DNA from: a virus
Lineage: Duplodnaviria; Heunggongvirae; Uroviricota; Caudoviricetes
Direction: 5' to 3' (one strand)
Length of the DNA stretch: 13,200 nt
Virus record (IMG/VR): IMGVR_UViG_2657245439_000001
Both the position numbers and the translations under genes were made by a program. Shown here one piece after another: positions 1-11,470 of this stretch. A model generated the notes under the pieces. The model was not told the origin of the DNA, did no database searches, and saw only the letters and a program-made list of their open reading frames with translations. Position 1 is the stretch's first letter, and each line of letters begins with the position of its first letter.

Positions 1-1399
1 CCTTCAGGCGCTGTTCCGTGCCTTCCCGTTCTGCCTGCCGGTCAGTCAGCCCCCGGCTTTTCGCATCAATGGCGGCCCGTTTTGCCCGTTGCTGCTGTGC
101 GAATTTATCCGCCTGCTGCGCCAGCGCGTTCAGGTGCTCCTGATACGTAACCTTGTCGCCAAGTGCAGCCAGCTGGCGCTTGTACTCCAGCGTCTCGTCT
201 TTATGCGCCAGCAGGGATTTCTCCTGTGCAGACAGCTGGCGACGTTGCGCCGCCTCCTCCAGTACCGCGAACTGATTCTCCGCCTTCCACAAATCCCGGC
301 GCTGCTGGCTGATTTTCTCATTCGCTCCGGCATGCTTCTCCAGCGTCCGGAGTTCTGCCTGAAGCGTCAGAAGGGCAGCATGAGCACTGTCTTCCTGACG
401 ATCGCCCGCAGACACCTTCACGCCGGAGTGCTTCGGCTTTTTCAGCGTCGCTTCATAGTCCTTTTTCGCCGCCATCAGCGTGTTGTAATCTGCCTGCAGG
501 ATTTTCCCGTCCTTCAGTGCCTTGTTCAGTTCTTCCTGACGGGCGGTATATTTCTCCAGCGGCGTCTGCAGGCGTTCGTAAGCCTTCTGCGCCTCTTCGG
601 TATATTTCAGCCGTGATGCCTCAGAGTCGGCCCAGTCCTTTGCTGCCATCTCTCTGGCCTTTTCAAGATCGGCCTGCAACGTGGCGGCTGAAAGCCCAAG
701 TTGCGCATTCGCTCTGTCCTCCCATGCTCCACGGAGATTGGCAAGAAATGCTGAGGTTTTACCGCGCCGGTGGCTTCGGCTCTGATACCACTGCCATTTT
801 TTATCCGCTTCATCAAAAGCCTTTTCAGCTTTGGCGAGCATATCTGCAGAGGAGTCCGGGCGGCCAATATCCAGCACCGCATCCCACATGGATTTGAATG
901 CCTGTGCAGTCTTGTCAGCCCAGGTCTCCAGCGTACCCATGTTATCTTTCAGGCGGCGGGTCTGGTCATCAAACCCTTTCGTTGCGGCCTCGTTCGCCGC
1001 CTGCAACGCCCCGGCCCCATCGCCGGAACGCTGCAACTGAGCAACATACGCAATCTGTTCCGCCGTCACGTTATGGAACTGGCGCGCCATCGCCGTCAAC
1101 CCAGACGTCGGGTCAGTGGTCAGCTTCCCGAAGGCTTCAGCGACCTTGTCCACCTCCACGCCGGATGCAGAGGAGAAACGCGCCACACTCTGGCTGATTG
1201 CCTCAAACTGCTCACCACCACGCACACCGGCATTCACCAGCGCCGTCAGTGACTCGCTGGTCTGGTTAAACGTCAGCCCTGCCGCCTGCCCGGTTCTGGA
1301 CAGGGCCAGCATACGATCTGCCGTCAGTCCCGCCTGATTACCGGAAAGGACCAGCGTTTTGTTGAAATTAGACAGGGTTGAGTCACCCTGATACCAGGC
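1..1399 (-). pseudogene. H: Tail tape measure protein H, portion downstream of the in-frame TAG; frame stays open to the window edge
   Basis: I translated the minus strand codon by codon from 1399 to 2 in the H frame and found no stop codon. The product (e.g. ...KRQLAALGDKVTYQEHLNALAQQADKFAQQQRAKRAAIDAKSRGLTDRQAEREGTEQRLK) is clearly tape-measure-like and continues past position 1. It is separated from the H start only by the TAG at 1400-1402. First in-frame ATG after the stop is at 1312-1310. Confidence 0.8.
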
Positions 1400-1810
1400 C
1401 TACGTCAGCGCACCGGTCGCCACCGCTAGCGAAGTGATACCAACCATCGGCAGGGTGATCGCACCGGCAAGTCCCCTGAACATGGGGATCATCCCGCCAA
1501 AGGCGTCCTTCACCTGACCGCCCTGTTGCAGCAGGATCAGCCACGGACTTTGCCCGCCTGCAAGCTGCGTGGCCACGTCGGTGAACTGCGCAGGCAGCAT
1601 ACGCATGGCAGCTTTATACTGCCCGACGGAAATCCCCGCTTTCTGTGCAGCCAGCGCCTGTCGGTTCATCGACTGCTCAACAACTGCCGCTGTTTTTTTC
1701 GCATCACTTTCCGTACCGGAAAAATGACGCCTGACTCTGGCCATCTGCTCGTCAAATCTGGCCGCATCCAGACTCAAATCAACGACCAGATCGCCTACCG
1801 GTTCAGCCAT
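1400..1810 (-). CDS. H: Tail tape measure protein H, N-terminal 136-codon fragment ending at an in-frame amber TAG
   Basis: ATG at 1810-1808 overlaps the T stop (ATGGCTGA arrangement). The 136-aa product MAEPVGDLVVDLSLDAARFDEQMARVRRHF... matches the lambda gpH N-terminus. TAG at 1402-1400 falls where a sense codon is expected. Confidence 0.85.
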   Translation of the reverse strand: MAEPVGDLVVDLSLDAARFDEQMARVRRHFSGTESDAKKTAAVVEQSMNRQALAAQKAGISVGQYKAAMRMLPAQFTDVATQLAGGQSPWLILLQQGGQVKDAFGGMIPMFRGLAGAITLPMVGITSLAVATGALT

Positions 1811-2321
1811 ACCGGACTCCTCCTGCGATCCCTTCTGATACTGTCATCAGCATTACGTCATCCTCCGTCATGTCCGCCACATCCGGGGAAGCGGGGATAA
1901 CTTCATTCCCGTCAGGGCCAAAACGAACGCCTCCGGCAAGCCCTGCCGCTTTCTGCATCAGCACATCATCTTCAGGCTCTTCGTCAACCTCACGCCGGCT
2001 CAGCAGACTGAAATCCAGCGGATGCATATCCGGATCGCTGAAAAACAGGCTGAGCACGGTGTACGTCAGCCCGGAAAAGTGCATATCCAGCAGAACATCA
2101 TGAAAATAATGGGTACTGTAAAAGCGGTGCCAGTCGGCATACTCCGTGGATGACATCCCGGCAAGCATGGCGCGCCAGTCGGGTCGCCCCATCTCACGCG
2201 CCAGTTTCAGGGCAAAACTCAGACATTCCGGACAGACGTAACACCACGTTTTCAGCCTGAGCAATTGCCTCCGTGGGCCAGGTGGTAAGCACTTCCTGCT
2301 CAATCTGTTTAACGGCTTCAT
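1803..2321 (-). CDS. T: Tail assembly chaperone T-domain ORF (the T part of G-T); homology to gpT begins near 2237, upstream codons are an out-of-frame shadow of G
   Basis: The product ...ALKLAREMGRPDWRAMLAGMSSTEYADWHRFYSTHYFHDVLLDMHFSGLTYTVLSLFFSDPDMHPLDF...GIAGGVRYG matches lambda gpT. Its stop TGA at 1805-1803 overlaps the H start. The frame is +1 relative to G, not the -1 expected for lambdoid G-T. Confidence 0.75.
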   Translation of the reverse strand: MKPLNRLSRKCLPPGPRRQLLRLKTWCYVCPECLSFALKLAREMGRPDWRAMLAGMSSTEYADWHRFYSTHYFHDVLLDMHFSGLTYTVLSLFFSDPDMHPLDFSLLSRREVDEEPEDDVLMQKAAGLAGGVRFGPDGNEVIPASPDVADMTEDDVMLMTVSEGIAGGVRYG

Positions 2322-2544
2322 TCATGGACGGCATCTGCGTCTTCTTCGGATGGTTATGCCACAGGGACATCGCCACCACAAAAGCGCCGGTTCTGATGAC
2401 GTCTTCCACAGTAAACTTCCGGTTGCTGTCGGATTCTGCCTGCTGTTTCATCAGGGCGAGATGCTCAATACGCTGCAGGGCTGACAGTTCAGAAAGCGTG
2501 ACAGTCACGCCGTTATATTCAAATGATTCGGTTTTCAGGAACAT
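2194..2544 (-). CDS. G: Tail assembly chaperone G, C-terminally truncated (116 aa versus about 140 in lambda)
   Basis: ATG at 2544. The first ~110 aa (MFLKTESFEYNGVTVTLSELSALQRIEHLALMK...VLRLSGMSEF) match lambda gpG, followed by 6 unrelated residues (CPETGA) and TGA at 2196-2194. Confidence 0.85.
   Translation of the reverse strand: MFLKTESFEYNGVTVTLSELSALQRIEHLALMKQQAESDSNRKFTVEDVIRTGAFVVAMSLWHNHPKKTQMPSMNEAVKQIEQEVLTTWPTEAIAQAENVVLRLSGMSEFCPETGA

Positions 2545-7789: not shown

Positions 7790-11470
<3,681 letters not shown>

What the first reader, a model, noticed from the sequence alone, without database searches (positions are those of the whole stretch)
2194..2321. Deletion at the G/T junction removes the programmed -1 frameshift site and puts T in the +1 frame
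G ends after 116 codons, with the last 6 residues unrelated to gpG. The T-homologous frame (…LSFALKLAREMGRPDW…) is +1 relative to G, whereas lambdoid phages make G-T by a -1 slip at a GGGAAAG-type heptamer near the 3' end of G. No X-XXY-YYZ heptamer is present in the G frame across the overlap. Coordinate bookkeeping against lambda gene lengths indicates roughly 90-100 bp missing (length 1 mod 3), which would cover the last ~25-30 codons of G plus the slippery site. From memory of lambda, the junction lies at a short direct repeat (GAGTTT), which would fit a replication-slippage deletion, but this cannot be verified from the window.
Basis: partly seen in the sequence, partly recalled or inferred. 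Interest (0 to 1): 0.6.

Follow-up and report, generated by a model that had tools for sequence, protein, structure and literature searches.

The report
Slippage deletion kills prophage G-T frameshift
A lambda-like prophage in a draft E. coli-type assembly has lost 88 bp between two copies of an 8-bp repeat, which removes the frameshift signal needed to make the tail chaperone G-T; the tape-measure gene was already broken, so this is ordinary prophage decay.

Summary
Genes lie on the - strand. Compared with lambda, with other E. coli prophages and with a sister prophage that is 99.9% identical, the window lacks exactly 88 bp at the G/T junction. In the parental allele the lost segment is bounded by a perfect 8-bp direct repeat, CTGAGTTT, and one copy survives at 2215-2222. 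The deletion removes the G GGA AAG slippery heptamer and the last 27 codons of G. G' is 116 aa, with 6 new C-terminal residues, and the T domain now sits in the +1 frame. No X XXY YYZ heptamer remains. The junction was found nowhere else: not in 5,426 complete E. coli genomes, phage or plasmid records, GTDB representatives, viral or metagenome contigs, nor among about 15 billion proteins. Sister prophages with intact G/T share this amber, so the prophage was already tail-defective when the deletion arose. The best explanation is a short-repeat (slippage or template-switch) deletion in a decaying prophage. One curiosity remains untested: the junction creates UUU_U in the G' frame, a known +1-prone motif, and a slip there would give a G-T fusion missing 30 linker residues. 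Interest is low.

The parts
2194..2544 (-). Truncated tail assembly chaperone gene G' (116 aa). Residues 1-110 match gpG, followed by 6 new residues (CPETGA) and a UGA stop at 2196..2194.
   Evidence: Translation. Pfam PF06894 Phage_TAC_2, E=4.7e-52, covers profile positions 1-114 of 126, against 1-125 in the 137-aa sister G.
2215..2222 (-). Deletion junction. This is the single surviving copy of the 8-bp direct repeat CTGAGTTT. The parental allele has two copies 88 bp apart (start to start).
   Evidence: Alignments. Repeat family D10 in the sister locus L006, at 9501-9508 and 9589-9596. Gap position.
2214..2217 (-). UUU_U tetranucleotide in the G' reading frame (GAG UUU UGC), created by the junction. 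A +1 re-pairing of tRNA-Phe here would enter the T frame at GCC. This is hypothetical.
   Evidence: Frame bookkeeping and the predicted 246-aa fusion. UUU_Ynn is described as +1-prone in bacteria in PMC5009743.
1803..2222 (-). T-domain coding region (LSFALKLAREMG...GVRYG*), now +1 relative to G'. The nominal T-frame ORF extends upstream to an ATG at 2321, but 2223-2321 is only G sequence read out of frame.
   Evidence: Translation. Pfam PF06223 Phage_tail_T profile 1-73 of 73 is retained. Alignment to lambda.
2190..2192 (-). AUG in the T frame, 1 nt after the G' stop (UGAGAUG). Gene callers use it as the start of a free 129-aa T'. There is no properly spaced Shine-Dalgarno sequence.
   Evidence: Gene call 10353-10742 in L004. 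Sequence.
1400..1810 (-). 5' fragment of the tape-measure gene H, ending in an amber codon (TAG at 1402..1400) at codon 137, where relatives have Tyr.
   Evidence: Translation against the reference H. Sequence. The identical 136-aa product occurs on 5 contigs.
1..1399 (-). Remainder of the H reading frame downstream of the amber codon. It is open to the contig end.
2560..3300 (-). Intact major tail protein gene V (246 aa) immediately upstream of G. It gives the V-G-T-H synteny context.

Best explanation
The window is a whole 13.2-kb contig of a draft assembly. It carries the head and proximal tail genes of a lambda-like prophage. A spontaneous deletion between two copies of the 8-bp direct repeat CTGAGTTT removed one repeat copy plus the 80 bp between them. 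The mechanism would be replication slippage or RecA-independent template switching. The lost segment held the last 27 codons of G and the G GGA AAG programmed -1 frameshift site. G is therefore truncated, the T domain is stranded in the +1 frame, and the essential G-T fusion chaperone can no longer be made by the normal route. The prophage was already tail-defective, because the tape-measure gene H has an amber stop at codon 137 that is shared with sister prophages. The deletion is therefore a selectively neutral secondary lesion of prophage decay. What is shown: the deletion, its repeat-bounded ends, the loss of the slip site, the frame change, the H amber and its presence in sister prophages. 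What is inferred: the molecular mechanism of the deletion, the order of the two events, and the loss of function.
For: 1. There is an 88-bp gap against lambda, NCTC86, the closest complete E. coli prophage and the sister loci L005 and L006.
2. L006 differs from the window over 11.7 kb by only 7 SNPs, one 1-nt indel and this deletion.
3. The parental allele has CTGAGTTT at both ends of the lost segment, spacing 88.
4. GGGAAAG lies in the X_XXY_YYZ register of G in L006, and no such heptamer is present in G'.
5. The junction is a singleton. It had no match in 5,426 complete E. coli genomes, phage records, plasmid records, GTDB representatives, viral contigs or metagenome contigs. The 116-aa G' occurs on one contig among about 15 billion proteins.
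6. H has an amber codon at codon 137. The identical 136-aa product is found on 5 contigs. The two sister loci read across that region (L005, L006) have an intact 137-aa G and 144-aa T, and J split by an IS4-family element.
7. The other 13 genes in the window are full length.
8. gpG and gpGT at a ratio of about 30:1 are crucial for lambda tail assembly (PMC5009743). RecA-independent deletions between close direct repeats are well documented in E. coli (PMC7145654).
Against: No reads are available, so the junction cannot be verified at read level, and it is seen in only one draft assembly. The deleted segment shows no hairpin that would favour slippage (z = 0.57), so the mechanism rests on the microhomology alone. 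Loss of function is inferred from lambda genetics and was not measured. G' keeps 114 of 126 Pfam profile positions and could retain chaperone activity. Low-level +1 slippage at the new UUU_U could still give some G-T. The rest of the prophage in this strain is not in the window, so its overall state is known only from the sister prophages.
Confidence: 0.85

Rival explanations
1. The 88-bp gap is an assembly, library or sequencing artefact, or is present only in a minority of the sequenced culture. In that case the real prophage has an intact G/T like its sister prophages.
For: The junction and the 116-aa product occur in a single draft contig only. The sister prophages, 99.9% identical, carry the full sequence. 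The protein is listed from NCBI only, with no independent Logan or ENA assembly.
Against: Inference from how assemblers work: k-mer or overlap assemblers do not join sequence across an 8-bp repeat unless reads span the junction. Typical sequencing errors are 1-2 nt homopolymer indels, not clean 88-bp repeat-bounded deletions. The flanks are otherwise collinear and error-free, and all 13 other genes are intact. Repeat-bounded deletions are a classic real mutation class.
Confidence: 0.07
2. The locus has been rewired and is still functional. G-T would be made by +1 ribosomal slippage of tRNA-Phe at the junction-created UUU_U (GAG UUU UGC to UUU GCC). This would give a 246-aa fusion identical to native G-T minus 30 residues (VVNNAPEQTDDAGPAEPVSAGKVFDGELSF). 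Alternatively or in addition, a free 129-aa T' would be made by termination-reinitiation at UGAGAUG.
For: UUU_U lies in the G' zero frame, and its +1 frame is exactly the T frame. [quoted passage not shown] The T Pfam domain is fully retained, as is most of the G domain. An AUG follows the G' stop by 1 nt.
Against: The arrangement is a singleton with no conservation. No stimulator is evident from direct reading of the sequence: there is no Shine-Dalgarno-like element upstream and no stop or rare codon in the A site (UGC). The UUU_U is an automatic by-product of the repeat sequence. G' loses about 12 conserved profile positions. H is amber-truncated, so no tail could be built anyway. From lambda genetics, free T is not known to be functional.
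Confidence: 0.05
3. The deletion was positively selected, for example to abolish tail or particle production, or to escape a host defence that senses tail chaperone or tape-measure proteins. It would then not be neutral decay.
For: Both inactivating lesions seen in the window fall in the adjacent G/T/H module, while 13 other genes are intact.
Against: Two lesions are too few to test for clustering. The deletion is unique to one assembly. H was already inactivated in the shared ancestor, so removing G-T adds no further phenotype. The sister prophages also carry an IS in J, which is typical of random decay.
Confidence: 0.03

Closest known systems
Bacteriophage lambda G / G-T tail assembly chaperones made by programmed -1 frameshifting at G GGA AAG (Levin, Hendrix and Casjens 1993; Xu, Hendrix and Duda 2004; reviewed in PMC5009743)
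   Same: The genes are homologous (PF06894 and PF06223). The synteny V-G-T-H is the same. DNA identity to lambda in this region is 96%.
   Different: The slippery heptamer and the last 27 codons of G are deleted. T is +1 rather than -1 relative to G. The defining recoding signal is absent.
Spontaneous RecA-independent deletions between short direct repeats in E. coli, by replication slippage or template switching. The lacI deletions of Albertini et al. 1982 are cited from my own knowledge; see also PMC7145654.
   Same: A perfect 8-bp direct repeat flanks the lost segment in the parental allele. One copy is retained, and the repeats are close together at 88 bp.
   Different: No palindrome or hairpin lies between the repeats. 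The event was inferred by comparison and not observed.
Defective or cryptic lambdoid prophages of E. coli, such as the K-12 cryptic prophages and the defective prophage pool of O157 Sakai (from my own knowledge)
   Same: Point and indel lesions have accumulated in essential morphogenesis genes: the H amber, the G/T deletion, and an IS in J in the sister prophages.
   Different: The decay is at an early stage. Thirteen of the 16 genes in the window are still full length and about 97% identical to lambda.
Incidental or utilised +1 frameshifting at UUU_Y in bacteria (argI, Fu and Parker 1994; Yersinia YopN-TyeA), as summarised in PMC5009743
   Same: A UUU_U tetranucleotide sits in the zero frame, and the +1 frame is open into a downstream functional domain.
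   Different: There is no experimental evidence, conservation or stimulatory context here. The motif arose as a by-product of the deletion.

Membership tests
Lambda-type G/G-T tail assembly chaperone pair with programmed -1 frameshift | A G homologue (tail assembly chaperone domain) encoded between the major tail gene and the tape-measure gene | tested here: met
   PF06894 E=4.7e-52, profile 1-114 of 126. Gene order V-G-T-H.
Lambda-type G/G-T tail assembly chaperone pair with programmed -1 frameshift | A T-domain ORF directly downstream that overlaps the 3' end of G | tested here: met
   PF06223 profile 1-73 of 73. The T-frame ORF 2321..1803 overlaps G' by 128 nt.
Lambda-type G/G-T tail assembly chaperone pair with programmed -1 frameshift | A slippery heptamer X XXY YYZ (G GGA AAG) in the G frame near its 3' end | tested here: not met
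   No XXXYYYZ heptamer in any frame of G'. It is present at L006 9568 in the correct register and in lambda.
Lambda-type G/G-T tail assembly chaperone pair with programmed -1 frameshift | The T frame is -1 relative to G | tested here: not met
   T is +1 relative to G'.
Short-direct-repeat (slippage or template-switch) deletion | The parental allele has identical short direct repeats at both deletion ends, and the derived allele keeps exactly one copy | tested here: met
   CTGAGTTT at L006 9501-9508 and 9589-9596. A single copy remains at window 2215-2222.
Short-direct-repeat (slippage or template-switch) deletion | A near-identical undeleted relative exists, so the polarity is deletion rather than insertion | tested here: met
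   L006 is 99.9% identical and L005 99.3% identical. All phage records and E. coli genome records listed carry the 88 bp.
Short-direct-repeat (slippage or template-switch) deletion | The junction is verified in the raw reads | not testable with these tools
   No read data are accessible. The junction is seen in one assembly only.
Defective (decaying) prophage | Inactivating mutations in genes essential for virion formation | tested here: met
   H amber at codon 137. G truncated and the G-T signal lost. In the sister prophages J is split by an IS4-family element.
Defective (decaying) prophage | Failure to yield infectious particles on induction | not testable with these tools
   This needs induction and plaque assays or electron microscopy.
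Programmed +1 frameshift site (UUU_Ynn type) | UUU_Y in the zero frame, with the +1 frame open into the downstream domain | tested here: met
   GAG UUU UGC at 2220..2212. The +1 reading gives ...SEFALKLAREMG....
Programmed +1 frameshift site (UUU_Ynn type) | A stimulatory context: a slow or stop A-site codon, or an upstream Shine-Dalgarno-like element | tested here: not met
   The A-site codon is UGC (Cys). The upstream sequence UCCGGAAUGUCUGAG has no AGGAGG-like element at a suitable spacing (direct reading of the sequence).
Programmed +1 frameshift site (UUU_Ynn type) | Evolutionary conservation of the arrangement | tested here: not met
   The junction is absent from every other collection searched.

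The most novel reading that the evidence does not exclude
The deletion accidentally replaced lambda's -1 recoding signal with a +1-prone UUU_U. A small fraction of ribosomes would still make a linker-shortened G-T fusion (246 aa, native G-T minus 30 residues) at roughly the low ratio that tail assembly needs. This would be a natural example of one programmed-frameshift solution being swapped for another in a single mutational step.
Probability: 0.05. Interest if true: 0.45.

Novelty: new member of a known kind. Interest (0 to 1): 0.15.

Why it matters
The finding matters little beyond annotation. G' and T in this contig should be flagged as remnants of a disrupted G/G-T recoding unit in a defective prophage. 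They should not be annotated as two normal genes, and no -1 frameshift product should be annotated. It is a clean example of an 8-bp microhomology deletion, and the near-identical undeleted sister prophages allow the order of the decay steps to be inferred (H amber first, G/T deletion later). The only wider point is the junction-created UUU_U. It could serve as a small natural test of how easily a low-level G-T ratio can be regenerated by a different frameshift direction. With H inactivated, this has no consequence in this strain.

Tried and rejected
1. I looked for the same junction elsewhere. I used a degenerate 32-mer against GTDB genomes, viral contigs and metagenome contigs. I used a 46-mer, designed so that neither flank alone can seed megablast, against E. 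coli genomes, phages and plasmids. There were no matches, so a conserved variant lineage is rejected.
2. I tested whether a hairpin in the deleted segment could have promoted slippage. Its fold is no better than shuffled sequence.
3. I scanned both strands of the window against Rfam for any RNA element. Nothing reached the gathering thresholds.
4. I searched solved structures with native G-T to judge whether the lost residues form a linker. There was no PDB relative. I ran no further search on this, because H is already inactive.
5. I searched the literature for the assembly accession JHTH00000000 to identify the strain. There were no hits.
6. At first I thought H might be truncated by a deletion or frameshift. 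It is a single in-frame amber codon.

Full report
**What the window is.** The genes lie on the - strand and follow the lambda order: rha-like, nu1, A, W, B, C/nu3, D, E, FI, FII, Z, U, V, G, T and the first 1.8 kb of H. The window is the entire 13,200-bp contig JHTH01000118.1 of draft assembly GCA_001266385.1. It is about 94-97% identical to lambda across the aligned segments. It is 98.3% identical to the closest prophage in a complete E. coli genome.

**Checking the observation.**
- The ORF 2544..2194 (- strand) encodes a 116-aa protein, MFLKTESFEYNG...RLSGMSEFCPETGA*.
- The overlapping ORF 2321..1803 reads ...CPECLSFALKLAREMGRPDW...GVRYG*.
- The T-homologous frame is +1 relative to G, and G' contains no XXXYYYZ heptamer in any frame.
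- Alignment to lambda 9695-10260 shows a single 88-bp gap. It covers ...TGAGTTTGTGGTGAATAAT...TCTGCGGGAAAGTGTTCGACGGTGAGC, and so includes the G GGA AAG slip site and the G stop codon.
- All 40 phage records listed, and every E. coli genome record listed, match the region in two pieces separated by the same extra 88 bp.
The size is 88 bp rather than 90-100.

**The parental allele.** An exact-protein look-up of the neighbouring H fragment led to two NCTC assemblies, GCA_900450055.1 (L005) and GCA_900449185.1 (L006), that carry the same prophage.
- L006 differs from the window over 11.7 kb by 7 SNPs, one single-base indel and the 88-bp segment.
- In L005 and L006 the sequence reads GGAATGT-CTGAGTTT-GTTG...GGTGAG-CTGAGTTT-TGCC.
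- The lost segment is thus bounded by a perfect 8-bp direct repeat with start-to-start spacing of 88, and it is listed as repeat family D10.
- The window keeps exactly one copy, at 2215-2222.
- The chance of 8 bp of microhomology at an arbitrary junction is about 4^-8.
- The deleted segment does not fold better than shuffled controls, so the short repeat is the only visible promoting feature.
- RecA-independent deletion between close direct repeats, by slippage or template switching, is well documented in E. coli (PMC7145654).

**Consequences for coding.**
- The parental G is 137 aa. The deletion removes residues 111-137 and adds six new ones.
- G' keeps Pfam PF06894 profile positions 1-114 of 126, whereas the parental G matches 1-125.
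- The T domain (PF06223, 73 of 73 positions) is untouched but now lies in the +1 frame.
- In lambda, gpG and the frameshift product gpGT are both required, at a ratio of about 30:1. The G part binds the tape measure H, and the T part recruits the tail tube protein V (PMC5009743).
- With the heptamer gone and the frame changed, the normal route to G-T is abolished.

H carries an in-frame amber codon (TAG, 1402..1400) at codon 137, where relatives have Tyr.
- The identical 136-aa product occurs on five contigs. One is the window itself.
- L005 and L006 have an intact 137-aa G and 144-aa T. Their J gene is split by an IS4-family element.
- A further place similar to L005 was not shown, and the 2.8-kb contig L008 starts inside T and does not reach the junction.
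- By contrast, the 116-aa G' occurs on one contig only among about 15 billion proteins.
- The junction sequence is absent from complete E. coli genomes, phage records, plasmid records, GTDB representatives, viral contigs and metagenome contigs.
- The parsimonious order is that the H amber came first, in a shared ancestor, and the G/T deletion came later in this lineage alone.
- All 13 other genes in the window are full length, so the prophage is at an early stage of decay.

**Best explanation (confidence about 0.85).** This is a real deletion between short repeats in an already tail-defective lambdoid prophage. It destroys the G/G-T recoding unit and is selectively neutral.

**Rival explanations.**
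- *Artefact or minority allele (about 0.07).* The junction is a singleton from one draft assembly, and I cannot see the reads. However, assemblers do not join sequence across 8-bp repeats without reads that span the junction, and the flanks are clean.
- *Functional rewiring (about 0.05).* The junction places UUU_U in the G' frame (GAG UUU UGC). A +1 re-pairing of tRNA-Phe would continue as GCC CUG AAA... in the T frame. The product would be a 246-aa fusion equal to native G-T (276 aa) minus VVNNAPEQTDDAGPAEPVSAGKVFDGELSF. UUU_Ynn is reported to be especially +1-prone in bacteria, and it is the likely site of the YopN-TyeA fusion (PMC5009743). The G' stop is also followed after 1 nt by a T-frame AUG (UGAGAUG), which gene callers use for a free 129-aa T'. 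Against this reading, there is no stimulatory context and no conservation, part of the G domain is lost, and H is inactive anyway.
- *Positive selection for loss of tails (about 0.03).* Nothing supports this beyond the two lesions being adjacent.

**Comparison with known systems.** The locus is homologous to lambda G/T but fails two defining features of the programmed -1 frameshift unit, namely the heptamer and the -1 frame. It should be filed as a disrupted remnant and not as a functional member. It meets the sequence criteria for a short-direct-repeat deletion and for a defective prophage. It meets only the minimal motif criterion for a UUU_Y +1 site.

**Verdict.** The feature is an ordinary, previously unrecorded pseudogenising deletion in a decaying prophage. 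Interest is low (0.15). The only non-trivial lead is the untested +1 slip at the junction.

Noticed in passing
window 1400-1402 (- strand), within H at 1..1810: The tape-measure gene H has an amber (TAG) codon at codon 137, where relatives have Tyr. The identical 136-aa product occurs on 5 contigs, including NCTC assemblies. Gene callers also predict a 692-aa downstream H ORF in the sister prophages, starting 88 nt after the amber codon. Whether that ORF is expressed is unknown.
   Followed up: partly
L005 17487-18914 and L006 17488-18915 (sister prophages, gene J): Gene J is split by an identical 1,428-bp IS4-family element at the same site in both sister genomes, but in opposite orientation. 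This could reflect independent insertions at a preferred target, an in-place inversion, or an assembly difference.
   Followed up: partly
L006 about 717 (terminase A): A single extra A in L006, relative to the window, splits terminase large subunit A into 168-aa and 490-aa ORFs. The window's A is intact at 641 aa. It may be a long-read homopolymer error or a further decay lesion in that strain.
   Followed up: no
window about 2441 (- strand, within G): There is a 9-bp in-frame gap relative to lambda, with CAGGCGGAG absent (the three residues EQA of lambda's QAEQAESD repeat). The sister prophages share it, and it gives the 137-aa G allele also seen in E. marmotae and other Escherichia. It is a natural length polymorphism at a short tandem repeat and not a defect.
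   Followed up: partly
window 4777 (FI) and 473 (H): Two further 3-bp in-frame gaps are present relative to the closest complete E. coli prophage. FI is 131 aa against 132 aa.
   Followed up: no
window 1 and 13200 (contig ends); cos at about 12205: The window is a complete draft contig. It starts upstream of a Rha-family regulator gene and breaks off inside H. Lambda position 1 (cos) aligns to about window 12205. The breaks probably reflect repeats shared with other lambdoid prophages in the same genome.
   Followed up: no
window 2190-2196 (- strand): After the deletion, the G' stop codon UGA is followed 1 nt later by a T-frame AUG (UGAGAUG). This creates a stop-start arrangement that does not exist in lambda. 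Automatic annotation therefore calls a free 129-aa 'T' protein.
   Followed up: partly
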